Of a DNA stretch of 64,000 bases, positions 50,855 through 61,239 are shown piece by piece. Where the stretch lies: the IMG/VR virus record IMGVR_UViG_3300043470_000815, one strand, 5' to 3'. A program made the translations under genes and the position numbers. The notes under the pieces were generated by a model, which saw nothing but the letters and a program-made list of their open reading frames with translations, searched no databases and was not told the origin of the DNA. Positions within the stretch are counted from its first letter, which is position 1, and the number at the start of each line of letters is the position of its first letter. Source of the DNA: a virus.

Positions 50855-51280
50855 TTAACCTTTCAATTTCCTTAATTGTTCTTCAAGATCACCCAATGTA
50901 ACGTTTTTATCACGTTCAGCGGCAATCCTATCTTCTAGTTTTCTGATTTCGGCTTGTTTGGTTTTTTCGGCGGCGGAATTTTTTTCTTTATCCAACTTGT
51001 AACCAATCGTTAGATCAATGAACTTATACCACGTATCCAGCCTTTTTTCCAATTTAGATTGGTCTTCCGTCTTAGACCACGAGTCAAGGTCATTGAGTTG
51101 ATTTTTTTGCCCTTTAAGGGTCTTTAAAAGCAATCGTAGTGATACTACACTTGCGGCGTTTATGATTTCCCAAGGATTGACCATGTTCGCCCCGAATTTT
51201 CCTTCCAACACATCTTCACTAAATGATAAGTCAGTATAAAGGGTTCTTAATGTTTGTAAATTTTCTTTTGTAAATTCCAT
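50855..51280 (-). CDS. coiled-coil hypothetical protein downstream of the TROVE-like gene
   Basis: 141-aa ORF. Confidence 0.65.
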   Translation of the reverse strand: MEFTKENLQTLRTLYTDLSFSEDVLEGKFGANMVNPWEIINAASVVSLRLLLKTLKGQKNQLNDLDSWSKTEDQSKLEKRLDTWYKFIDLTIGYKLDKEKNSAAEKTKQAEIRKLEDRIAAERDKNVTLGDLEEQLRKLKG

Positions 51281-51540: not shown

Positions 51541-53388
51541 TTAAATTGTGTTTTGTTTTATTAATTCATAACGGTTTGACATATACAACGTTTTCAACGG
51601 TAAGTAAGTATCAATAACATCTAAATCGTCAATATTCTTAAAGATTTGATTAATCACACCTGCATTATAACCCATTACGTGTAAAGTATTAGGAACTCCA
51701 GCGAACTTCGATGGTTCGTCCCTACCAGTCACAACGTCCCAAATAACTACAACACCATCCCACCCATAATTCAACATTTTGCGACGAAAATCTAACATGG
51801 ATTGTGCTGCATTACTTAGACGATTCATATCACCATCCGAAACAACAACAAAAACGGGATACCCTTGTAGTTGTTCAATTTTATGCTGTTTAGTTAATGG
51901 GTCAGATTCAATCCACCTACCTAATGTGTCGGCAACTGATGTGAAGTTTGTACTTCCACCATTAGAATCAATGAATTTTGATATATTTCCATAGTTTTCA
52001 CTAAAAGGTTTAGTACGATCAATTAATTTTTCTACCTTAGTTGCAACACCTTGTAAAAAACGATTTGGGCGGGTTGTGCCTGTTGAACCATCCGTGTAAA
52101 CATTTGCTTCCGATCCGAATGTAATAAGGACGTTATCTAATTCATTGGATGGATTTTTTAACATTGTAATTGTTGATAGCAAACGAGCCATAAACGTTGC
52201 AACACCTGTCATACTACCCGAAATATCCGCAATTGTCAATACTGGAACATCGAACTTAACTTGATCCAAAATACTTTGTGCATTTAAATTCAGTTGGGTG
52301 GTGGATTGTTGCATCTTTTCCAAAATACTAAACATCGTTTCTCCACCCGTGTTGACTTTGGCCGCTTTTTTAACCTGTGATAACGCAATTTTATCTTCTT
52401 CACTGGCAGTTCCTAAACGGATTTTTTCAGTCAGTTCACGTTGCGTTTCTTGTAATTTGGCTTTATTGGTTTCCCATTCAAGTAACCATTTTCCTAAGTC
52501 ATTTTTCCACTTAGATTTTAATTTATCATCACCATCCAACAACCTACGACGGGTACGGAAACGTGCCGATGACGGCATTTTATCCAACAAATCATTAAAT
52601 TGAATTTTGTCCAAATCGTTAATTTTTCCTGTTGAAAATAGAACACTTTCCAATTCTTGGTTGTATTGTTTTTTCCATTCAGCCAACCCCGTGAATTTTT
52701 TGTATTTTTCACCACGTGAAACTTCCCACCCTAATTCAACTGATAATAAATCGTAAAATTTACTACGAAGTTTCATATTGGCTTTGACTAAATCAGACAA
52801 ATCACGTTGACCAACCTTTTCACGGGTTGTACGGTCTAACTTTTGACGCTTAGATGTTCGCACGTTTGTTAGGAATTTTGCAATTATCATACAATCCACC
52901 ACATTACCTTTACGGATAATATTTGCGAGGTATTTTGCAACTTCCGATAGATCAACACATTCCAACATGTTAATGTTTTCGGTTACTTGTTTACTACCAG
53001 TTTTTGTCTTGACACGTGATGCTAATACGTTGTCCAATGTGGTATATTGCCTTATACAATCGCTTGTGACGAACTTTAGGTATTGGGTTGGATGATTTAG
53101 CCTTGTCCAATTTAAGATTGTCCTAAACGCTTCACGGTTGGAATTACCACCGTTATCTAACGAAGTTTCATTTCGTAGAACGTTATGTGTTCGGTTGGAA
53201 ATGTCGCCACAACTGAATGCAATTATCCAAAACAATTGTTTTTCTTGTTCGGTTTTACAATCGCGGAATGCGTTGGTTAGAATTGCGGGTGTAATTTTAC
53301 CTGATTGGGCAGCCTGATAAAATTCAAATAAAGCAAGTTTTCCATAAAATGGATTTTCACTTGCGGGAGTTTTTAATGAAACTTTCAT
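51541..53388 (-). CDS. TROVE/Ro60-like (DUF2828-type) protein with C-terminal VWA domain
   Basis: Helical N-terminal region with GD...GG..NRE and LES.LF..GKI...MPS.A; VWA motifs IADISGSM, GGSTNF, VVSDGD, VIWD. Confidence 0.75.
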   Translation of the reverse strand: MKVSLKTPASENPFYGKLALFEFYQAAQSGKITPAILTNAFRDCKTEQEKQLFWIIAFSCGDISNRTHNVLRNETSLDNGGNSNREAFRTILNWTRLNHPTQYLKFVTSDCIRQYTTLDNVLASRVKTKTGSKQVTENINMLECVDLSEVAKYLANIIRKGNVVDCMIIAKFLTNVRTSKRQKLDRTTREKVGQRDLSDLVKANMKLRSKFYDLLSVELGWEVSRGEKYKKFTGLAEWKKQYNQELESVLFSTGKINDLDKIQFNDLLDKMPSSARFRTRRRLLDGDDKLKSKWKNDLGKWLLEWETNKAKLQETQRELTEKIRLGTASEEDKIALSQVKKAAKVNTGGETMFSILEKMQQSTTQLNLNAQSILDQVKFDVPVLTIADISGSMTGVATFMARLLSTITMLKNPSNELDNVLITFGSEANVYTDGSTGTTRPNRFLQGVATKVEKLIDRTKPFSENYGNISKFIDSNGGSTNFTSVADTLGRWIESDPLTKQHKIEQLQGYPVFVVVSDGDMNRLSNAAQSMLDFRRKMLNYGWDGVVVIWDVVTGRDEPSKFAGVPNTLHVMGYNAGVINQIFKNIDDLDVIDTYLPLKTLYMSNRYELIKQNTI

Positions 53389-53703
53389 TAATTTGTAAGT
53401 TAATAAGTGAAAAAAAAAATAAAATACTACCTAATGGTTAAATTAAGGCAATTTTGAATATTCATAAATTATACGCATTTTATCCCATAATTCTATTTCG
53501 ATTTCTCGTTCATCGGGTAATGAAAATATCAAAGTTCTTTTCATTTCGCCTATTCGATAAGATGAAATATTATTTATTTCGGGTATTAATGCTTCGTAAA
53601 ATTGTACGAATTTTCCGTTGGGAGTTAAATCTTTGAATATTTCGGATATTTGTGATTCTGTCATATTAAATTTATTTAATCTTTTTATTGTTAAATTATT
53701 AAG

Positions 53704-53817
53704 CAGGGGTTATTGGACTCGAACCAATATTTCGACCTTGGAATGGTTGTTAAATGAATTGTAAGTAATCAAATGAATACTTTAATTTACGCGTCCTACC
53801 AGTTAGACTAAACCCCT
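53704..53817 (-). tRNA. tRNA-Gly(TCC) with a 42-nt insertion in the anticodon stem (element B)
   Basis: Acceptor AGGGGTT/AACCCCT, D arm, T arm ATTGG-TTCGAGT-CCAAT; removing 53748-53789 restores CGACC-ATTCCAA-GGTCG. Confidence 0.7.
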
Positions 53818-53972
53818 TAATTGTTAATATTAGGCAAGAACCAAAAAATATATGAATATTACATATATCCACTTCTTAGGAACAATACTGTGTTTTTGAT
53901 TCCTACCCATTTATTTAAAGTTAGTGTGAATAATATTCACCGTGTTTGTAACAGAAATCTGTTACTTAAAGA

Positions 53973-53998
53973 GACAGAAGGTAAACTTCTGTTTAAAA
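53973..53998 (-). terminator. hairpin downstream of element D
   Basis: ACAGAAG-TTTAC-CTTCTGT then CTCTTT; near-identical copy at 57520-57545. Confidence 0.6.
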
Positions 53999-54097
53999 AA
54001 ATCCACTTGTTGTTGTCCACCACTGGACGAATCACCATACATGAAGGTAAATATAAGAATCGAACTTATCATTTTTTAATGTATTGTAAGTGGATTT
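53999..54097 (-). ncRNA. circularly permuted tRNA-like (YrlA-like) RNA (element D)
   Basis: 10-bp end stem AAATCCACTT/AAGTGGATTT; order is T arm, loop-closed acceptor, D arm. Confidence 0.75.
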
Positions 54098-54152
54098 AAA
54101 ATTTATGTTTAAATCCCGATAGAATTAAAGTTAATCTTTGTGATTTAATTGT

Positions 54153-54303
54153 CGGGGAGGTGGGAATCGAACCCACGTTGTATAATATATCAGATTATTT
54201 TATATGTTAAAAGTATTGTAAGTAAATTAAACTCTGAATTAATCGTTAGTATTTTAATTGATAAAGTTTTTAATCTACTCATTTCCAGCGTTTTAACTCC
54301 CCT
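54153..54303 (-). ncRNA. tRNA-like RNA with expanded body (element E)
   Basis: GGGGAG/CTCCCC acceptor, GTGGG-TTCGATT-CCCAC T arm, internal TCAGA/TCTGA stem enclosing ACTTACAATAC. Confidence 0.65.
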
Positions 54304-54848
54304 GTATTTCTAAAATCTTTTCAACTTTTCGTATAAATCCCAAAAAACACTTCCTATACAAATGAATGTTCCTGTACATAAAACAACGAAAGATATTTGC
54401 AATTTAATCCATGTCGATGTATTATACGCACCATTATCATCAGCATAAACCGAAATAGCCGTCAATACAACTATATTAGAAAACGCTAAGTATAAGAAAA
54501 ACAATTTACTAATTAATTCGATGCTCATAGAATATTCCGTTTGCGGTTAAATATCCAGTTACATCTTCTTTGTATAAAAAGTGCATTACTGGACAAAATT
54601 TACCATTGTCATTAAGATAACCGAATACATATTCGGTATTACCGTTAATCGGGTCTTTTGGATATAAAAAGGATTCAAGTCCTTCAAAGTTTAATATTGA
54701 TGTTTGTGTCATTTTATTTTAAAGTTTAATTATTTAATTTAAAAAATGAACTATTTGGACTGAAAATATCCACCCTATTCACACTCGACTTTACTTGCAT
54801 AGTTTCCGACCGTATAGGCTCTTGTTGTGACAATAGTTCATATTAAAA

Positions 54849-55409
54849 TTAAGCGTATGCTGTCCAACTTTCTTCGCCACCATCCCAAATAGAACACCAA
54901 CCATATTCAGTACTTACATACGGTTTACCATCAGATAAACACTTGATTCTTTTTACCCAAGGTTTTTCGTTCTTAAAATCATCCTTGATTGGTGTACAAT
55001 AACCAGTCATATCACCAGTTGCACGACGATTTTGCTTAACCTCCCTAAGTTCCAACGTTTGACCTTTTACTTTTGTTACTTGGTAAAAGTTGATGTTGGT
55101 TTGTTCCCAACCCCACGAGTAAACGAAAATATCACCTTCGCTAACTTTGGCAGTTTTTACTAATTCAGCAATTTTTTCACGACGGGCAACTTTAATAGAT
55201 TCCGATTTTTGATATTCGGCAATGGTTTCGGCAGCCCATTCATTTCTGCGTTCTTCACTTTTAAAGTAATAATTCTTCAAAGTTTTAGTTTTGCTGTACT
55301 TTGCTTTTGGTGTATTTTGTACAAGTTTGGCGGTTGGTAATCCGTTGGCGTTGTTACCTGTTTCGATGTAAAATTTATCGGTGATGTTGATAATGTTAGT
55401 GGTTGTCAT
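54849..55409 (-). CDS. conserved phage hypothetical protein
   Basis: GDIFVYSWGWEQTNINFYQV motif; has its own promoter. Confidence 0.65.
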   Translation of the reverse strand: MTTTNIINITDKFYIETGNNANGLPTAKLVQNTPKAKYSKTKTLKNYYFKSEERRNEWAAETIAEYQKSESIKVARREKIAELVKTAKVSEGDIFVYSWGWEQTNINFYQVTKVKGQTLELREVKQNRRATGDMTGYCTPIKDDFKNEKPWVKRIKCLSDGKPYVSTEYGWCSIWDGGEESWTAYA

Positions 55410-55471
55410 TGTGTGTAAAGTTTAAATGTTTAATAAAATGTAAATAAAATTTATTTCCTTTAATTATACCA

Positions 55472-55522
55472 CAAAGATACTACCTCCCAACCTATCCCAC
55501 AATAGCATTAACTAACTGTTAA
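55472..55522 (-). promoter_or_regulatory. early promoter plus dyad
   Basis: TTAAC-N5-GTTAA-N5-TTG-N20-TATCTTTG. Confidence 0.85.
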
Positions 55523-55547
55523 CAATAACGTTCAATTCTTTTTAAAA

Positions 55548-55802
55548 GTTATTCAGTTTAAATAAGCGAAAAAAACAGTGTGTTGTTACACCAAAAGTAT
55601 TCATTTGTTTTCTTAGTTGCCGTACCATTTCAAATGAATGTGTAGTATTTAATTACAACCTTTTGTATTTATCCCAAAGCACATCACAAACTACTGTTAC
55701 CATAATTTGCATTTCGCACATGGCGGGTACTCAACTACTCTTTAAACGATTGCTACCCTCAAGCACACGTCCTATCTTTTTCGGTTATTTAAACTGAATA
55801 AC
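55548..55802. ncRNA. 255-nt element closed by an 18-bp perfect inverted repeat (ncRNA or MITE)
   Basis: GTTATTCAGTTTAAATAA at 55548-55565 and its reverse complement at 55785-55802; several internal hairpins. Confidence 0.55.
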
Positions 55803-56724
55803 GTTACTTCCGTTTTTTACTACGAATTACGGATTGTACAATCGAACCAACCCCACTATTAATCGGAATCGCGTAACGTTTTAATTCTTGTGGTAAGCGT
55901 TTAAATTCATATTCATCAAGAAATGAACCAGCCTTCCAGTGTTTAAATGGTATTGATAGTTTGTATTTCATTTTATTTTTTACTCGAATGTACAATTGTG
56001 TCACCTAACTTAAAATCACCTCCAGCCATAATTACCGATCCGGGCGTGATAATGTTTTTACCAGTTATGTGTAGGTTGGTTGGTTCGGGTTTAACTTCAT
56101 TCCTTAAAATTTCTTTAAGTTCATCGCTATCTTTCCACCGATCCCACCAATCGTTAAAGTCTGAATTATTTTTGCCTAAATTATAGGCTTGAAAAAGTAC
56201 GTTTTTTAGTGACATTTGTTTTAAATAATTAATTATTGAACTGGAAACCAAACAGTAATTACACTGGCGGGAGGCATGACTATTCCAATAGCATGAATAA
56301 CTTCCATTTTGTACGGTGATGCGAAATCACATTGGCATAATTTGACAAAGTTATGAATGTAACAATACAATCCAAATACGATTAACGCCCCGTATAATAG
56401 GCAACCTACCTTTGACATTCCTGTGAGTTTTGATTTTACTTTAATTGACATTTTATTTTAAGTTTATTAATTACTAAATCCACCAAGATCAGTGTAATCT
56501 TTCAATTGTTGAATCAATTCATCAGTTTCTGTTGAATTATCAATTAAATGCTGTTCAATTACATACCGTTTGGTTGTATCATTCCAAACCGACAACGTTG
56601 TTTTTCCTGACGCACTATCAGTTTTATATATAAACTGTAAGTCTTTATACGTTTCAACTGTTAAGTAACCATTTATACTTGATGTGTGTTGTGTCATAAA
56701 ATTTTTAAGTTTTAAAAGTGTGGG

Positions 56725-56831
56725 TGGAGTATTTGGGAATCGAACCCAAACATTACCAGTGCCGGAAATCGCCTATTTCGGAAATCGGTGCGGACTAATT
56801 ACAAGTAATTCTGCCTTTAATTTAATACCCC
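56725..56831 (-). ncRNA. tRNA-Ala-like RNA with rebuilt anticodon/variable region (element F)
   Basis: GGGGTAT/ATACTCC with G3.U70 and A73; D stem AATT/AATT; T arm TTGGG-TTCGATT-CCCAA. Confidence 0.65.
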
Positions 56832-56852
56832 TTGAAAATAAGAATTAATTTA

Positions 56853-57287
56853 TTATTGTTTAATATGTGATTTTTTACCACCACAAGATCGTGAACAACA
56901 TGGTTTAAACGTTGGATTTTTAACAAGTTTATAATTGACATGATTACCCGCTTTGATAAATTCTTTATTACAAACCGGACATATAAAACATAAATATTTT
57001 TTTGTTATATTTCTGTGTTCTCTATCTTTTTTGTTATTTTCTTTAGGTGTTAAAATTTGTAAATTATCAATGACATCGTTTAAAGGATTATTATCTATAT
57101 GATCTACGTGTTCATTTTTTAATAAAAACCTTTCAAGTTTACAACACATTAAATATCTAGCATACGACATACTTGTTCGCGAATTATCGTTTTTTACTAA
57201 AACAACTAAATTTCTAGGTTCTTTATTTTGTAATAAATAAATTGCTTTATAATCTTCTATAAATGGAATTTTTAGTTCGATTTTCAT
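56853..57287 (-). CDS. HNH homing endonuclease in the tRNA cluster
   Basis: HVDHIDNNPLND.IDNLQIL, C-terminal CxxC...CCSxxC zinc finger. Confidence 0.85.
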   Translation of the reverse strand: MKIELKIPFIEDYKAIYLLQNKEPRNLVVLVKNDNSRTSMSYARYLMCCKLERFLLKNEHVDHIDNNPLNDVIDNLQILTPKENNKKDREHRNITKKYLCFICPVCNKEFIKAGNHVNYKLVKNPTFKPCCSRSCGGKKSHIKQ

Positions 57288-57317
57288 TATTTATATATTC
57301 TTTTAACTAAAAGAAAA

Positions 57318-57407
57318 TGCACTTAATTTGTGGGATTTGAACCCACCTTCGTTTGTGTTTGAGACAAATTGTTCACCTAGAACAGTTTTAAATTTATTGT
57401 AAGTGCA
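57318..57407 (-). ncRNA. tRNA body (D arm, anticodon CAA, T arm) with acceptor arm replaced by the motif stem (element G)
   Basis: TGCACTT/AAGTGCA stem plus ACAAT; TGTTC/GAACA; TTTGT-CTCAAAC-ACAAA; GTGGG-TTCAAAT-CCCAC. Confidence 0.75.
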
Positions 57408-57411
57408 ATAG

Positions 57412-57483
57412 TACCCCGTATGGGAATCGAACCCATATTTGTAGATCGAAAATCTACTATACTAACCGTTATATGAACGGGGC
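57412..57483 (-). tRNA. trnE: tRNA-Glu(TTC)
   Basis: Full cloverleaf; GTAGA-TTTTCGA-TCTAC. Confidence 0.9.
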
Positions 57484-57545
57484 TAATTTATAACGTGAAT
57501 GGAAACCCTTCACTAAAGAGACAGAAGATAAACTTCTGCTTAAAA

Positions 57546-57604
57546 AAATCCACTTATTCGTAAAATACCATAATTTTTGATTTAAAAGTATTGTAAGTGA
57601 ATTT
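57546..57604 (-). ncRNA. minimal motif hairpin RNA (element I)
   Basis: AAATTCACTT-ACAATAC...AAGTGGATTT; same downstream hairpin as element D. Confidence 0.65.
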
Positions 57605-57625
57605 ATAATTCCGTTAGAAATTTAG

Positions 57626-57699
57626 TGGCAGGGGTGTGAATCGAACACACAATAATTGGACTTATGAGACCCACTAGCCTACCAAGGCTTGTCCCTGCT
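57626..57699 (-). tRNA. tRNA-Met/Ile2(CAT), A1:C72 mismatch (initiator-like)
   Basis: Cloverleaf; loop CTCATAA; T arm GTGTG-TTCGATT-CACAC. Confidence 0.8.
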
Positions 57700-57723
57700 A
57701 TTTATTTTTTTTTTACATTTTAG

Positions 57724-57804
57724 TGGGAAAAGATGGAATCGAACCACCAATAAAATTTTTGTAAGTAAATTAAATCTACTAACCTGTTTTTTCCCGATTT
57801 TCCC
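57724..57804 (-). ncRNA. tRNA-like RNA with the motif in place of the anticodon arm (element K)
   Basis: GGGAAAA/TTTTCCC, GGTGG-TTCGATT-CCATC; shares AGTAGATT and TTTAATTTACTTACAA with element E. Confidence 0.6.
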
Positions 57805-57959
57805 TAATTCTAAACCATCGAAATGTAAACCTGTTAGGGAGGTTTGTCTTTTAAAAGTACATATAATATAATTACACTTTCCCTTTACAATTTGCTTACA
57901 CCGATTGGGTGGTTAGTATGTAACTTGATATATATTATATACCTGTTTTAATTATACAA

Positions 57960-58010
57960 CAAAGATAAGTACTTTATTTTTACTGTGCAATATCATTAAC
58001 AACTTGTTAA
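57960..58010 (-). promoter_or_regulatory. early promoter plus dyad
   Basis: TTAAC-N5-GTTAA-N5-TTG-N20-TATCTTTG. Confidence 0.85.
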
Positions 58011-58019
58011 CTTTTATTG

Positions 58020-58092
58020 TTGTCACTAAAGGACTCGAACCTTTAACCTTCTGACTCAAAATCAGACGCACTACCAATTGTGCTAAGTGACA
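58020..58092 (-). tRNA. trnQ: tRNA-Gln(TTG)
   Basis: Cloverleaf; U1-A72; TCTGA-TTTTGAG-TCAGA. Confidence 0.9.
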
Positions 58093-58109
58093 TTTTTTAA
58101 ACTGTTATG

Positions 58110-58280
58110 TGGTTGAGGTAGGAATCGAACCTACAAACTTGATATTTTTTACCATCTTTTACTACCTTCGATGTTTAATATCGTGCTGGTTTACTGTTCA
58201 TAAGTAGTATATCATGGAGTTTACCCATAATCAATTGTATTGAACTTCACCAACGCGTTTACCAATTTCGCCACCCAACC
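58110..58280 (-). ncRNA. tRNA-Leu-like scaffold with 58-nt anticodon loop and 51-nt variable region (element M)
   Basis: GGTTGGG/CTCAACC; TGGCGAAATTGGTAAACGC D arm; TTGGT/ACCAG stem; GTAGG-TTCGATT-CCTAC. Confidence 0.65.
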
Positions 58281-58298
58281 ATTTAAATTTTAAAAAAA

Positions 58299-58355
58299 AA
58301 TCCACTTAATTATCAAATTAAAAGTTTGGTTGTTTTAATGTATTGTAAGTGGATT
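58299..58355 (-). ncRNA. minimal motif hairpin RNA (element N)
   Basis: AATCCACTT-ACAATAC...AAGTGGATT; first 23 nt identical to element D. Confidence 0.65.
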
Positions 58356-58386
58356 AATATTTTAATATCTACTTTTAGATATTCTG

Positions 58387-58462
58387 TGCAACTAAATGGA
58401 CTCGAACCATTAACACCAAGATTCATAAATGAATCAACTCTAACCAATTGAGTTATAATTGC
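58387..58462 (-). tRNA. atypical tRNA, 6-nt anticodon loop, undetermined
   Basis: GCAATTA/TAGTTGC, ACTC/GAGT, GATTC-ATTTAT-GAATC, AATGG-TTCGAGT-CCATT. Confidence 0.6.
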
Positions 58463-58646
58463 GTTTTAAAAACCGCCCTACCAACATAATTGTACACTTA
58501 TTATTGGAATAATATACTTACTACTTTCAGGCGATTTTATGACAACATTGTACGGATGTTATCATTATTTTTCTTACTTTGACAATACCGCAATAATTAC
58601 CGAATATGATGGGTAAGAAAAAATTTATTAGTTAATTATTAATTAG

Positions 58647-58719
58647 TACCCGTAATGAGACTCGAACTCATAAATCCATGATCCTAAATCATGCTGCTTT
58701 GCCAATTTACTATACGGGC
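58647..58719 (-). tRNA. tRNA-Leu(TAG) with short variable loop
   Basis: CATGA-TTTAGGA-TCATG; variable loop GATTT. Confidence 0.8.
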
Positions 58720-58737
58720 ATTTAATTGATTAATTAG

Positions 58738-58822
58738 TGCAGATGGTGGGACTTGAACCCACACGCCCATTTAGAACAACGGTGTTTAAGACCGTTTTGG
58801 CTACCAATTACAACACATCTGC
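58738..58822 (-). tRNA. trnL: tRNA-Leu(TAA)
   Basis: ACGGT-CTTAAAC-ACCGT, long variable arm, A73. Confidence 0.9.
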
Positions 58823-59060
58823 TTATTACATTAACCCCAAAATTCTAGGATTCCTACATTATCAAAATAAAAATATCCAGCCGATTGATTATTTGGTAAT
58901 TTACTTTCATTCCACTTATTTTTAAACTTATTAAAAGTAGATGGTGACATTCTTACATGACCTTTACCGTTAACCAGTTTGGGTGTTTTACCAAATAAAC
59001 TTTGAAAAATTTCTAAAGACATCATAATGTGATAGATTAAAACTGTGATTAATTATGATA

Positions 59061-59111
59061 CAAAGATAAGTCGAATATTCATACTGTGCAACCTCATTAA
59101 CATTTCATTAT
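59061..59111 (-). promoter_or_regulatory. early promoter plus dyad
   Basis: ATAAT-N5-GTTAA-N5-TTG-N20-TATCTTTG. Confidence 0.8.
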
Positions 59112-59232
59112 CAAACTGGGATTTCATAAGGACTTTTACCCCACGTTTTTATGGAAATCGACTACCCGAAATGACCACGTGCTTTCTAATTTTACCCTAT
59201 GTTACACTTAGATAAAACCATTTATTTAAACA

Positions 59233-59344
59233 TAACCGCCAAGACTTGAACTTGGAAACAATTTTCATAAAAAAGTTATTACAAGTAACTTTAATATTTC
59301 CATTGTATTTTTGTATGCCATAACTTGTAATTATTCATTCGGTT
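59233..59344 (-). ncRNA. tRNA-Thr(TGT)-like RNA with expanded 5' half (element R)
   Basis: AACCG/CGGTT, CCAAG-TTCAAGT-CTTGG, AAAGTTA-CTTGTAA-TAACTTT; starts immediately after the tRNA-Asn CCA. Confidence 0.5.
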
Positions 59345-59418
59345 TGGCGGGAATAAAAGGATTTGAACCTATATTAAGTGATTAACAGTCACCCGTTCTA
59401 CCATTGAACTATATTCCC
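59345..59418 (-). tRNA. trnN: tRNA-Asn(GTT), CCA encoded
   Basis: GGTGA-CTGTTAA-TCACT; G73. Confidence 0.9.
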
Positions 59419-59622
59419 TTTTAATCTTAAAAAATATCGTTTGATAATATTTGTAATTTTTTCGTTATAATTTTTACACTCACAACCGCGTTGGCCACCT
59501 CGGATTGAATACCGGGAACATGAGACTATCAATCTTCATTGTGTTATTATAACAATTACAATTCCGTTTGACTATACGGATATAGTTTTATTTAAAAAAA
59601 TTATTTAATTTTAATTATACAA

Positions 59623-59673
59623 CAAAGATATGTACTTCCAACCAATTTCACAATACCATTAACAATCTATTCA
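59623..59673 (-). promoter_or_regulatory. early promoter plus partial dyad, upstream of tRNA-Asn
   Basis: GTTAA-N5-TTG-N20-TATCTTTG. Confidence 0.8.
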
Positions 59674-59736
59674 CAAAAAAACCCCCAAACCATGCGAACA
59701 CGTTTGAGGGTCAATATTTTTTAAGATTTTAAATCG

Positions 59737-61239
59737 TTAAAACTTTTTTAATCCTTCTTTCGTGAACATTATAGTGTTACCTTTCTGATCTTTTCCTTCT
59801 ATACGGAGAACGTCAATGTCATACTTTTTAGTGGATTTTAGTATCAAATCCAAGAAATACGCTGTCCAATATGTTGCATCTGCATAATCCGAACCCGGTA
59901 ACAGACCTAACCCCCGATTAATGAAAAATTCAGTAATTTCAGTATTTAATTTTTTCAATTCATCAGCCGCAAATAAGGTTGTTTTATATGAAACAATATC
60001 AATTTTAGTAATTGTTACAATTTCACCCGCCGCTAAATCTACATTATTTAATAATACGGGTTCTTTACTTTTAGTCGAACCATTACCAACAATCGACCAA
60101 CCAATCGAATAATTAACATTTAATGTAAATGATAAATCGCGAACGGTATGGGTGGGTGGATTTACTGGAGGGACTGGTGGATTAACAGGGCCGCCCGTTG
60201 GAATATCTTTAGGATTTTTATCCAATATAGACTTCACAAACGCATAACCATAACCTGTTTCATTGTCCTTACCTGCTGGTAAAATGTCCGATGCAACCCA
60301 CGCCATGTATTTTTTCATAACATCTGTATTGGCTAATACCTTACCCCATTTACTTAACGCAATTGCACATAAGGCGGATTGAAAAGGTGTTGCCATTGAA
60401 GTACCTGACAATGATGCGTATTGTTGATTTAGATAAGTAGATGTGATATTACGTCCCGGTTCAGACATCCAAACTTCCGGCCCGAATGTTGAAAATGAAC
60501 TACGTTTTAGGTTCTGATCTAAACTACCAACCCCAATTACATGTTCACTGTTACCGGGATAATTTACGCCCAAAGTACCTGTATTTCCAGCCGCTATACA
60601 ATAAATTACACCTAATTCTTTAGATGCTTTCAATGCAGCCTCGGTTGGAGCGTATTTTGCAGTACCACCACCCAAAGACATATTTACAACTACGAATGTT
60701 CCTTGATTTAAATAATTTTTATTTTCTAAATCTTCGGTTTTAACAGCATTTGCAACCCATTCAAATGAACCCGATCCTTGGTCATTCAGAACTTTGACAG
60801 GTTTAAATTGTAATAAACCCGCTTGTACCAAACTACGTGCAAGACCTAAGTTTTTACTTCCAATAATACCTGCCACATGTGTACTATGACCTTGAACGTC
60901 CACCAATGAACCTGCTGGTGATGTAAAATTTGAACCAGTCAATTGACCATCTTTTAAATCATTATGGTCATACTTTGAAGCGGTATCAAATACTTTAACA
61001 ACAACTTTATTTTTACATTCAGTTGTTAAACGCGTGATTAATTCATCGGGCAAAAGTAAATCTTCGCCCCAATTGGTTGGCCCTGCCAACACGTCACGTT
61101 TTGAAATTACTTTATCGGGTTTACCTTCCCCGGGAAATGGTGTAATGTCAAATGATTGACTAAATGTTACATTTGTTATAAAAAGTAACGCGATTGATAG
61201 GAATTGTTTCATTATGTTTTTAATTTTTGTTTTAACCAA
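59737..61239 (-). CDS. secreted subtilisin-like serine peptidase (S8)
   Basis: Triad VFDT / GHSTHVAG / GTSMATP; AAGN; signal peptide. Confidence 0.9.
   Translation of the reverse strand: MVKTKIKNIMKQFLSIALLFITNVTFSQSFDITPFPGEGKPDKVISKRDVLAGPTNWGEDLLLPDELITRLTTECKNKVVVKVFDTASKYDHNDLKDGQLTGSNFTSPAGSLVDVQGHSTHVAGIIGSKNLGLARSLVQAGLLQFKPVKVLNDQGSGSFEWVANAVKTEDLENKNYLNQGTFVVVNMSLGGGTAKYAPTEAALKASKELGVIYCIAAGNTGTLGVNYPGNSEHVIGVGSLDQNLKRSSFSTFGPEVWMSEPGRNITSTYLNQQYASLSGTSMATPFQSALCAIALSKWGKVLANTDVMKKYMAWVASDILPAGKDNETGYGYAFVKSILDKNPKDIPTGGPVNPPVPPVNPPTHTVRDLSFTLNVNYSIGWSIVGNGSTKSKEPVLLNNVDLAAGEIVTITKIDIVSYKTTLFAADELKKLNTEITEFFINRGLGLLPGSDYADATYWTAYFLDLILKSTKKYDIDVLRIEGKDQKGNTIMFTKEGLKKF

What the first reader, a model, noticed from the sequence alone, without database searches (positions are those of the whole stretch)
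57318..57407. tRNA body whose acceptor arm is replaced by the motif-bearing stem (element G)
D arm, a 5-bp anticodon arm with loop CTCAAAC (CAA), a 5-nt variable loop and a canonical T arm are all intact. The ends form TGCACTT/AAGTGCA beyond a large asymmetric internal loop that starts with ACAAT. It cannot be aminoacylated conventionally but still presents an anticodon loop and elbow, as a decoy or scaffold would. It is the topological complement of element D.
Basis: seen in the sequence. Interest (0 to 1): 0.72.

Follow-up and report, generated by a model that had tools for sequence, protein, structure and literature searches.

The report
Tagged tRNA-shaped RNA in a phage
A lake-water phage encodes a small RNA shaped like a leucine tRNA whose amino-acid-accepting stem is cut down and enclosed by a conserved 'helix plus ACAAU' tag; the same tag marks many tRNA-like RNAs, and the mRNA, of a neighbouring Ro60-like protein, which points to a new viral variant of Ro60/Y-RNA particles.

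Summary
On the minus strand, 57407-57318 folds into a 7-bp terminal helix. An unpaired ACAAU follows it, then a D hairpin, a 5-bp anticodon arm (loop CUCAAAC), a 5-nt variable loop and a canonical T arm. There is no normal acceptor stem: ARAGORN finds no tRNA and Rfam tRNA scores 25.2 bits against a cut-off of 29.

It is not a one-off. About 29 distinct viral elements share the architecture: helix ending ACUU, ACAAU, a tRNA, then AAGU and the return strand. The helix covaries strongly. A covariance model built without this phage finds element G at 54.3 bits (E 8e-9).

Homologues in related phages keep a 6-7 bp acceptor stem inside the tag. So here the tag encloses a shortened acceptor rather than replacing it. 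Weak acceptors are a family-wide trend (p about 6e-6).

The tag clusters upstream of a 615-aa gene and encloses that gene's start codon. The predicted fold of its product matches Ro60 best (helical domain plus MIDAS vWA), but it has no TROVE sequence hit.

Best reading: a Y-RNA-like ligand with the topology of Deinococcus Yrn1. Binding and expression are untested. The scan's earlier notes concern this genome only.

The parts
57401..57407 (-). 5' strand of the tag helix (UGCACUU); its last four bases ACUU are invariant in the family
   Evidence: Sequence; pairs with 57318-57324; helix covariation in 29 elements
57396..57400 (-). Unpaired ACAAU that follows the helix: the conserved single-stranded part of the tag
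   Evidence: Its invariance in the alignments follows from the search pattern.
57390..57394 (-). 5' strand of the residual 5-bp acceptor-like helix (AAUUU), followed by a 6-nt connector at 57384-57389
   Evidence: Read from the sequence. Model R1 aligns both acceptor strands as deletions.
57371..57383 (-). D-like hairpin: 4-5 bp stem and a 5-nt loop UAGGU that keeps the GG
57352..57368 (-). Anticodon arm: 5-bp stem and 7-nt loop CUCAAAC, with anticodon CAA at 57359-57361
   Evidence: In the 97% relative L121 the only difference is C34 to U.
57330..57351 (-). 5-nt variable loop (57347-57351) and T arm with a canonical T loop (57330-57346)
   Evidence: (T-arm match)
57325..57329 (-). 3' strand of the residual acceptor-like helix (AAAUU), continuous with the tag helix
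   Evidence: Read from the sequence
57318..57324 (-). 3' strand of the tag helix (AAGUGCA), followed by a U-rich tail at 57308-57317
57411..57483 (-). Canonical tRNA-Glu(UUC) ending 3 nt before element G, so G sits inside a tRNA array and is probably co-transcribed with it (inferred)
51541..53388 (-). 615-aa Ro60-like protein gene (helical N-terminal domain plus a vWA domain with a MIDAS site): the candidate binder of the tag
   Evidence: No TROVE hit by sequence.
53350..53412 (-). A copy of the tag in the 5' leader of the Ro60-like gene; the helix encloses the start codon
   Evidence: Conserved, with covariation, in homologues down to about 33% identity.
53999..54097 (-).
57546..57604 (-). 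Sister element: the tag helix around a short body that is not tRNA-like. A second copy lies at 58299-58355.

Best explanation
Element G belongs to a phage family of tRNA-derived small RNAs. All carry a portable tag: a covarying 7-11 bp helix whose inner four pairs are always ACUU/AAGU, followed on the 5' strand by unpaired ACAAU.

In the G class the tag is formed by the 5' leader and 3' trailer of a tRNA. In this phage the enclosed Leu-type tRNA has lost most of its acceptor stem. It therefore cannot yield a normal aminoacylatable end, but it keeps the D/T elbow and an anticodon arm.

The tag is most likely the binding site of the neighbouring Ro60-like protein, which also appears to bind the same tag on its own mRNA leader (autoregulation). 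Element G would then act as a Y-RNA-like ligand with the topology of Deinococcus Yrn1: the protein sits on the end stem and a tRNA-shaped domain is exposed. That domain could tether a tRNA-binding factor, or the RNA could simply occupy the protein.

Shown: the structure, family membership, helix covariation, the genomic association with the gene, and the tag on the mRNA leader. Inferred: protein binding, expression, RNA ends, and the effector.
For: 1. Fold and anatomy.
2. Independent family model: covariance model R1, built from 26 tag-flanked tRNAs of other phages, finds G full-length at 54.3 bits, E 8e-9. It aligns the helix, ACAAU and the three arms, with the acceptor strands deleted.
3. 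Helix covariation: in alignment A2 the helix is 93.9% paired, 5 of its 9 pairs show double changes, and no shuffle in 500 reaches the covariation score. In loci with the protein gene, 81 of 185 ACTTACAA copies have a partner of 8 or more Watson-Crick pairs, against 0 of 195 in unrelated loci. Among chance pattern matches in 596 Gb of cellular genomes, only 4 of 84 have a helix of 7 or more pairs.
4. Association with the gene: tag copies cluster upstream of it, on the same strand, in the window, L001, L119, L120, L121, L122 and L124. A homologue of the protein lies within the fetched flank of at least 14 further tag-bearing viral loci, down to 30% identity.
5. The tag encloses the gene's start codon in most lineages, and the helix sequence differs between them.
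6. The protein: invariant MIDAS residues. The full-length AF2 model has pLDDT 82.5. The top 11 Foldseek PDB hits are all Ro60, E 3e-8 to 6.5e-4. VIA-align gives Z 13.0-13.4 over 385-407 residues. Language-model features place the N-terminal domain nearest DUF2828 and TROVE clusters.
7. Precedent: Y RNAs with tRNA-like domains next to Ro60 genes, including in phages, and the two topologies Yrn1 and YrlA (PMC4201824; PMC12135203).
8. Constraint: 1 difference in 90 nt against the relative L121, whose coding DNA is about 94% identical. Element G is unchanged in DNA contigs of two further lake samples.
Against: There are no binding or expression data.

The protein has no TROVE hit with Pfam, with a profile search against PDB sequences, or with the TROVE HMM run on a relative's contig. 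Its N-terminal domain modelled alone matches only generic helical repeats. Ro60 homology therefore rests on full-length architecture and on language-model similarity.

The tag sequence differs from the published Ro-binding motifs (GGUCCGA; GNCGAAN0-1G), and no Rfam Y-RNA family matches.

Most class members enclose complete tRNAs, some with an encoded CCA abutting the 3' strand of the tag. That suits a precursor or processing role as well.

The acceptor-less form occurs in only one species-level lineage, so it could be a decaying copy.
Confidence: 0.5

Rival explanations
1. Processing-stem reading. The leader-trailer helix with ACAAU is a maturation signal, cut or trimmed by a host or phage RNase with or without the Ro60-like protein, that releases ordinary phage tRNAs. 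Element G is then a degenerating copy of such a flanked tRNA-Leu and has no function of its own.
For: 24 of 30 flanked elements contain a tRNA that ARAGORN recognises, with many different anticodons. Several have CCA encoded directly before the AAGU strand. Flanked elements often start 1-4 nt after another tRNA, within arrays. The canonical tRNA-Gln at 58020-58092 is also bracketed by a degenerate 9-bp leader-trailer helix. Homologues of G keep 6 of 7 acceptor pairs. The acceptor-less form is confined to the window and its 97% relative.
Against: The same tag also occurs where there is nothing to release: around short bodies that are not tRNA-like, around permuted tRNA-like bodies, as a hairpin at the anticodon position of tRNA-ordered RNAs, and over the start codon of an mRNA.

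Flanked tRNAs have significantly weaker acceptors than unflanked ones in the same loci: 14 of 33 against 159 of 194 have 7 pairs, p 5.5e-6.

G is better conserved than the neighbouring coding DNA.
Confidence: 0.27
2. Decoy reading. The RNA presents an anticodon stem-loop to a host anticodon nuclease or another tRNA-targeting defence and soaks it up, with the tag stabilising the RNA.
For: An intact 5-bp anticodon stem and a 7-nt loop with U33 and a purine at 37 are kept even though the acceptor is lost. Phage tRNA arrays are a known setting for such conflicts; this point rests on my background knowledge and was not checked here.
Against: The anticodon is the least conserved part between close homologues. 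It is CAA in the window and UAA in L121, CAA in L119 and UCA in L124, GGG in L130 and GGU in L155, while the bodies stay the same. A decoy for a sequence-specific nuclease should conserve that loop. No nuclease partner was identified.
Confidence: 0.1
3. Not a functional RNA: a chance hairpin or a terminator-like repeat lying next to a tRNA pseudogene.
For: The genome is AT-rich, so short helices are common. The helix is followed by a U-rich tail. No RNA evidence exists.
Against: The independent model gives E 8e-9. The helix covaries. The fold has z = -3.1. The architecture recurs in about 29 distinct viral loci and is nearly absent among chance matches in cellular genomes.
Confidence: 0.03

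Closest known systems
Deinococcus radiodurans Yrn1 (bacterial Y RNA bound by the Ro60 orthologue Rsr)
   Same: The 5' and 3' ends pair into the protein-binding stem, which takes the place of the tRNA acceptor stem. The interior resembles a tRNA, with a T arm, D-loop features and a 5-bp 'anticodon' arm (PMC4201824). It is encoded near the Ro60-type gene.
   Different: Element G has a full 7-nt anticodon loop, a variable loop and a recognisable tRNA ancestry: its homologues are scorable tRNAs. The conserved stem motif is ACUU/AAGU plus ACAAU rather than the GNCGAA-type motif. The partner protein is far more divergent. Nothing has been shown biochemically.
YrlA Y RNAs of Salmonella, other bacteria and phages
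   Same: A tRNA-mimicking domain is joined to a terminal stem, encoded beside a Ro60 gene, and there are several such RNAs per locus. Phage examples are known (mycobacteriophages, CcrColossus, Bacillus phage G, Thermus phage phiLo).
   Different: YrlA is permuted (T arm, acceptor-like stem-loop, D arm) and lacks an anticodon arm and free acceptor ends. Element G has normal tRNA order. No Rfam Y-RNA family matched the region at E up to 10.
Ordinary phage tRNA genes and their precursors in tRNA arrays
   Same: Element G lies within a tRNA array, 3 nt after tRNA-Glu. It has a T arm, an anticodon arm and a variable loop of tRNA dimensions. Its homologues are called as tRNA-Leu(CAA) and tRNA-Leu(CAG).
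   Different: There is no 7-bp acceptor stem, no discriminator or CCA context, a 6-nt connector and a short D loop. It scores below the Rfam threshold and ARAGORN misses it. A conserved, covarying leader-trailer helix with a fixed motif is not, to my knowledge, a described feature of phage pre-tRNAs.
Permuted or split tRNA genes processed at bulge-helix-bulge motifs (algae, archaea)
   Same: Flanking sequences pair into a helix next to a tRNA body, and both permuted and non-permuted arrangements occur in one genome.
   Different: There is no bulge-helix-bulge geometry: the helix is continuous for 7-11 bp and the unpaired stretch lies on one strand only. The setting is a bacteriophage, and no splicing endonuclease was seen. 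I considered this only as an analogy.

Membership tests
Canonical tRNA (Rfam RF00005) | Scores at or above the curated threshold, or is called by a tRNA finder | tested here: not met
   25.2 bits against a gathering score of 29, E 0.07. ARAGORN finds no gene here.
Canonical tRNA (Rfam RF00005) | 7-bp acceptor stem, a 2-nt connector to the D stem, and a discriminator/CCA end | tested here: not met
   Only a 5-bp helix remains, with a 6-nt connector, and the 3' strand runs straight into the tag helix. Model R1 aligns both acceptor strands as deletions.
Canonical tRNA (Rfam RF00005) | 5-bp anticodon stem with a 7-nt loop (U33, purine 37) and a T arm with a canonical T loop | tested here: met
Tag-flanked tRNA class of these phages (defined here) | Terminal helix ending ACUU/AAGU, then ACAAU, then a tRNA-ordered body with a T arm, recognised by a model built from other members | tested here: met
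   R1 was built without the window or L121: 54.3 bits, E 8e-9, full-length. Helix covariation.
Y RNA (Ro60/Rsr ligand; Yrn1 and YrlA types) | Encoded close to a Ro60 orthologue gene | tested here: inconclusive
   Element G lies 3.9 kb upstream of the 615-aa gene, on the same strand. The best full-length fold matches of that gene's product are all Ro60, but it has no TROVE sequence hit and its N-terminal domain alone gives no specific match.
Y RNA (Ro60/Rsr ligand; Yrn1 and YrlA types) | Stem formed by the 5' and 3' ends, plus an internal loop or tRNA-like domain | tested here: met
   compared with PMC4201824
Y RNA (Ro60/Rsr ligand; Yrn1 and YrlA types) | Conserved Ro-binding motif (GGUCCGA in animals, GNCGAAN0-1G in bacteria) near the 5' end | tested here: not met
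   The conserved 5'-strand sequence is ACUUACAAU. The motif definition comes from PMC4201824.
Y RNA (Ro60/Rsr ligand; Yrn1 and YrlA types) | Match to a curated Y-RNA covariance model | tested here: inconclusive
   No Y-RNA-type family is listed at E up to 10 over 53000-60000. Divergent members could be missed.
Y RNA (Ro60/Rsr ligand; Yrn1 and YrlA types) | Physical association with the Ro60 protein | not testable with these tools
   This needs EMSA or immunoprecipitation.
Ro60/TROVE protein (for the neighbouring ORF) | C-terminal vWA domain with a MIDAS motif | tested here: met
   D388, S390, S392, T480 and D518 are invariant in 47 sequences. vWA structures match at Z about 12 over residues 377-591.
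Ro60/TROVE protein (for the neighbouring ORF) | N-terminal TROVE (HEAT-repeat ring) domain | tested here: inconclusive
   Pfam TROVE is not hit. The full-length model aligns to Ro60 over residues 12-589. The domain alone matches only generic helical repeats. Its nearest neighbours by language-model features are DUF2828 (0.93) and TROVE (0.87) clusters.

The most novel reading that the evidence does not exclude
A large, uncharacterised family of phage proteins (more than 250 relatives found here; helical DUF2828-like domain plus vWA, with Ro60-like architecture) recognises a portable RNA tag: an ACUU/AAGU helix followed by ACAAU.

Evolution has grafted this tag onto tRNA scaffolds at three topologically different places: outside the acceptor stem, at the anticodon-arm position of permuted bodies, and as a hairpin inside tRNA-ordered bodies. 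The tag also sits on the protein's own mRNA.

Element G would then be a Y-RNA-like molecule caught in transition from a decoding tRNA to a pure protein ligand. The system would be a new way for phages to mark, mature, shield or exploit their own tRNAs.
Probability: 0.4. Interest if true: 0.8.

Novelty: new variant of a known kind. Interest (0 to 1): 0.62.

Why it matters
Ro60/Y-RNA particles are known from animals, bacteria and a few phages, but how Y RNAs arose from tRNAs, and what their tRNA-like domains do, remains open. This phage group shows the whole series side by side: intact tRNAs carrying the tag, tagged tRNAs with an opened or shortened acceptor (element G is the extreme case), permuted mimics, and tag-only RNAs.

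All of these sit next to a very divergent Ro60-like gene whose mRNA carries the same tag. If binding is confirmed, three things follow. A widespread protein family of unknown function gains an RNA partner and a recognition code. Y RNAs built on complete tRNAs would be described for the first time, as far as the papers I could search show. And the system would be tractable for asking whether Ro60-type proteins act in tRNA maturation, protection or turnover during infection.

Tried and rejected
- Similar DNA in GenBank phages: only generic tRNA matches, no close relative.
- A 14-mer motif scan of viral contigs: almost all chance hits. I used them afterwards as negative-control loci.
- Whole-genome search: no genome is held for this window.
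- Expression: one lake metatranscriptome run holds 7% of the words of the 5.1-kb stretch. Its contigs come from a 90-95% relative and do not cover 57233-57403, so nothing can be said about transcription of element G.
- Consensus promoter and terminator scan: uninformative.
- TROVE by sequence: Pfam, PHROGs, phmmer and a profile search against PDB sequences, and the TROVE HMM on the L001 contig, all gave no hit.
- N-terminal domain modelled alone (pLDDT 74.6) and searched with Foldseek and with VIA-align against 48,161 chains: only generic helical-repeat matches, Z at most 6.7.
- The pattern scan of viral contigs also returned a 126-nt family present in about 25 near-identical contigs. It has no tRNA and looks like coding sequence, so I discarded it.
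- The scan of cellular genomes: nearly all 84 hits lack the helix, so they are chance matches near tRNA genes. One MAG contig (L259) with 8 motif copies in 3.1 kb is probably phage DNA.
- A literature search for DUF2828 found no functional study.
- A bulge-helix-bulge or intron-type explanation was rejected on geometry.

Full report
**Setting.** The window is an AT-rich (about 31% GC) phage genome segment with nearly all genes on the minus strand. It carries a baseplate wedge gene, an amidase gene and an HNH endonuclease gene. No whole genome is held for it. Near-identical DNA occurs in many lake-water metagenomes. A minus-strand tRNA array lies at 57411-59418.

**The observation.** On the minus strand, 57407-57318 reads as follows:
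- a 7-nt strand ending ACUU;
- unpaired ACAAU;
- a further unpaired stretch;
- a D-like hairpin;
- a 5-bp anticodon stem with loop CUCAAAC;
- a 5-nt variable loop;
- a T arm with a canonical T loop;
- five nucleotides;
- the strand complementary to the first seven.

RNAfold gives this four-way fold at -20.8 kcal/mol, z = -3.14.

Standard tools do not accept it as a tRNA. ARAGORN is silent. Rfam tRNA reaches 25.2 bits against a threshold of 29. The reason is the acceptor. Only a 5-bp helix remains (57394-57390 with 57329-57325), the connector to the D stem is 6 nt, and the 3' strand runs without a break into the outer helix. The D loop is also short, at 5 nt. The description is therefore correct, with the nuance that the acceptor is shortened and fused rather than absent.

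**The motif is real.** ACTTACAA occurs 11 times in the window against 3.5 expected, and 8 of those copies lie on the minus strand within 5 kb. Each of these copies sits next to a complementary AAGU-containing strand.

**Relatives.**
- The 615-aa ORF downstream of the cluster (51541-53388, minus strand) has more than 250 metagenomic and viral homologues.
- I fetched loci for homologues of 97%, 59%, 56%, 54% and 46% identity.
- In all of them the same motif is clustered upstream of the gene on the same strand.
- Three carry clear counterparts of element G: L119:7237-7349, L124:6830-6941 and L001:8845-8954. In each, the helix and ACAAU bracket a tRNA that ARAGORN and Rfam recognise. It is Leu-CAA in L119, UCA in L124 and Leu-CAG in L001, each with 6 of 7 acceptor pairs.
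- The 97% relative L121 has element G itself, differing only at anticodon position 34.

**The class is broad.** A structured pattern scan of IMG/VR found about 29 distinct elements with this architecture, and 24 of 30 candidates contain a callable tRNA, covering many anticodons.

**Tests of the helix.**
- In an alignment of 29 elements the outer helix is 93.9% paired. Five of its nine pairs show double (compensatory) changes, and the four inner pairs are invariant. No shuffle in 500 reaches the observed covariation score, and sliding the partner strand reduces pairing to about 40%.
- In loci that carry the protein gene, 81 of 185 motif copies have a partner of 8 or more Watson-Crick pairs within 230 nt. 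In unrelated loci the figure is 0 of 195.
- The same pattern scanned over 596 Gb of cellular genomes gave 84 instances, of which only 4 have a helix of 7 or more pairs.
- A covariance model built from 26 elements, excluding the window and L121, finds element G full-length at 54.3 bits, E 8e-9. It aligns the helix, ACAAU and the three arms, and treats both acceptor strands as deleted.

**Is G just a decayed tRNA?**

Partly yes:
- The acceptor-less form is seen only in this phage and its 97% relative.
- More distant homologues keep the stem.

Three observations argue against plain decay:
- Tag-flanked tRNAs as a class have weak acceptors. Fourteen of 33 have seven contiguous pairs, against 159 of 194 unflanked tRNAs in the same loci. 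Twelve of 33 against 11 of 194 have the 1-72 pair open (Fisher p about 6e-6). Other lineages have independently shortened versions (L176, L151).
- G differs from L121 at 1 of 90 positions, while neighbouring coding DNA differs by about 6% (Poisson p 0.03). It is unchanged in DNA contigs from two further lake samples.
- Between close homologues, changes concentrate in the anticodon loop: CAA and UAA, CAA and UCA, GGG and GGU. The bodies and the tag are kept. That is the opposite of what is expected for decoding tRNAs, and it is not what a sequence-specific decoy predicts.

**What reads the tag?** The tag occurs in five contexts:
- around complete tRNAs;
- around permuted tRNA-like bodies (for example 53999-54097);
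- around short bodies that are not tRNA-like (57546-57604, 58299-58355);
- as a hairpin at the anticodon position of tRNA-ordered RNAs;
- in the 5' leader of the 615-aa gene, where the helix encloses the start codon.

The leader copy is present in most lineages down to about 33% identity, and the helix sequence differs between them. A shared RNA element on a gene's own leader and on neighbouring small RNAs is the classic signature of an autoregulated RNA-binding protein. This step is an inference.

**The protein.**

In favour of a Ro60-type protein:
- It has an invariant MIDAS motif.
- The AF2 model has pLDDT 82.5.
- Its 11 best Foldseek PDB matches are all Ro60 proteins aligned end to end, E 3e-8 to 6.5e-4, including Deinococcus Rsr and Thermus phage phiLo Ro60.
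- VIA-align gives Z 13.0-13.4 over 385-407 residues. vWA-only matches give Z about 12 over roughly 170 residues.
- Language-model features place the N-terminal 380 residues nearest DUF2828 clusters (0.93, 175 shared features) and then TROVE clusters (0.87).

Against:
- There is no TROVE hit by any sequence method.
- The N-terminal domain modelled alone matches nothing specific.

I put about 70-75% on it being a true Ro60/TROVE-superfamily member.

**Comparison with what is known.**
- Chen et al. 2014 (PMC4201824) showed that bacterial and phage Y RNAs encoded beside Ro60 genes contain tRNA-like domains. YrlA has the order T arm, stem-loop, D arm.
- In Deinococcus Yrn1 the end stem occupies the acceptor position and an anticodon-like arm lies between the D and T features. 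Element G has the Yrn1 topology, and the element at 53999-54097 has the YrlA topology.
- Phage Ro60 with Y-like RNAs has been characterised for Thermus phage phiLo (PMC12135203). Such systems are suspected in jumbo phages and in a Listeria phage.
- What differs here is the recognition motif, the very divergent protein, the multiplicity of RNAs, and the enclosure of complete, scorable tRNAs by the stem. I found no description of that last feature in the searchable literature.

**Verdict.** The element is real, structured and a member of a conserved viral RNA class. Its most likely role is as a Y-RNA-like ligand of the neighbouring Ro60-like protein (confidence about 0.5). The main rival is that the tag is a pre-tRNA processing stem and G is a decaying copy (about 0.27). 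The two readings are compatible if the Ro60-like protein is itself the processing or quality-control factor. Binding, expression and RNA ends remain untested.

Noticed in passing
window 56853-57287 (-): An HNH endonuclease ORF lies directly downstream of element G. It is absent from the 97% relative: L121 jumps from the equivalent of 57314 to 56717. It is therefore probably a recent mobile insertion into the RNA cluster.
   Followed up: partly
window 57997-58107 (-): The canonical tRNA-Gln(UUG) at 58020-58092 is also bracketed by a 9-bp leader-trailer helix. Its 3' strand keeps AAGU and its 5' strand is a degenerate copy of the tag. It was the best hit of model R1 (65 bits).
   Followed up: partly
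L119:7237-7349 vs L124:6830-6941; L130:3347-3462 vs L155:5618-5733: Closely related tag-flanked tRNAs differ mainly in the anticodon loop, so the nominal identity switches (Leu-CAA to UCA; Pro-GGG to Thr-GGU) while acceptor, D and T arms are kept.
   Followed up: partly
window 58110-58280, 53704-53817, 57724-57804, 57628-57698 (-): Several odd tRNA-like genes occur here. One Rfam tRNA hit is 171 nt long with an insert of about 100 nt. One is 114 nt long with a motif-bearing insert. One is an 81-nt borderline hit (30.6 bits) with the motif in the anticodon region. One is a CAU-anticodon tRNA-like RNA that ARAGORN misses (tRNA-Sec model, 27.7 bits).
   Followed up: no
window 57521-57539 and about 53965-53995 (-): A second repeated module, a hairpin with CAGAAG/CUUCUG arms followed by another hairpin, trails two of the tag elements (after 57546-57604 and after 53999-54097).
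   Followed up: no
window about 59040-59095 and 57950-58000 (-): A repeated block of about 45 nt begins TTGCACAGTA and contains TATCTTTG. It may be a promoter; the second part resembles the TAnnTTTG element of Bacteroidota promoters, which I recall from memory and did not test.
   Followed up: no
window 50855-51280 (-); L119:12048-12479; L120:11977-12408; L124:11950-12381: An ORF of 141-143 aa with no family hit lies directly downstream of the Ro60-like gene: 141 aa in the window, and 143 aa in the gene tables of four related loci. I did not compare their sequences. If they are homologous, the protein is a possible partner.
   Followed up: no
L119, L120, L124, about 3-8 kb downstream of the Ro60-like gene: A Ter-type cluster (HAD hydrolase, PRTase_3, TerC, TerD, vWA-TerF-like) follows the Ro60-like gene in several relatives.
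   Followed up: no
L001:12977-13483 and L001:1220-1281: The related viral contig carries a permuted tmRNA-like gene (ARAGORN call; Rfam 34.3 bits, below threshold) and a sub-threshold RAGATH-1 hammerhead match (42.1 bits against 56.3).
   Followed up: no
L259 (contig binned in a Cellulosilyticum MAG), 3.1 kb: It has eight ACTTACAA copies on one strand and two tag-flanked tRNA-like elements with 8-bp helices. It is probably phage DNA binned with a Firmicute, which hints that the system is not confined to one host group.
   Followed up: no
window 58646-58719 (-); L119 and L120 tRNA-Leu calls: Several Leu-anticodon tRNAs of these phages, flanked and unflanked, are only 73-75 nt long. They lack the long variable arm that bacterial tRNA-Leu normally has.
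   Followed up: no
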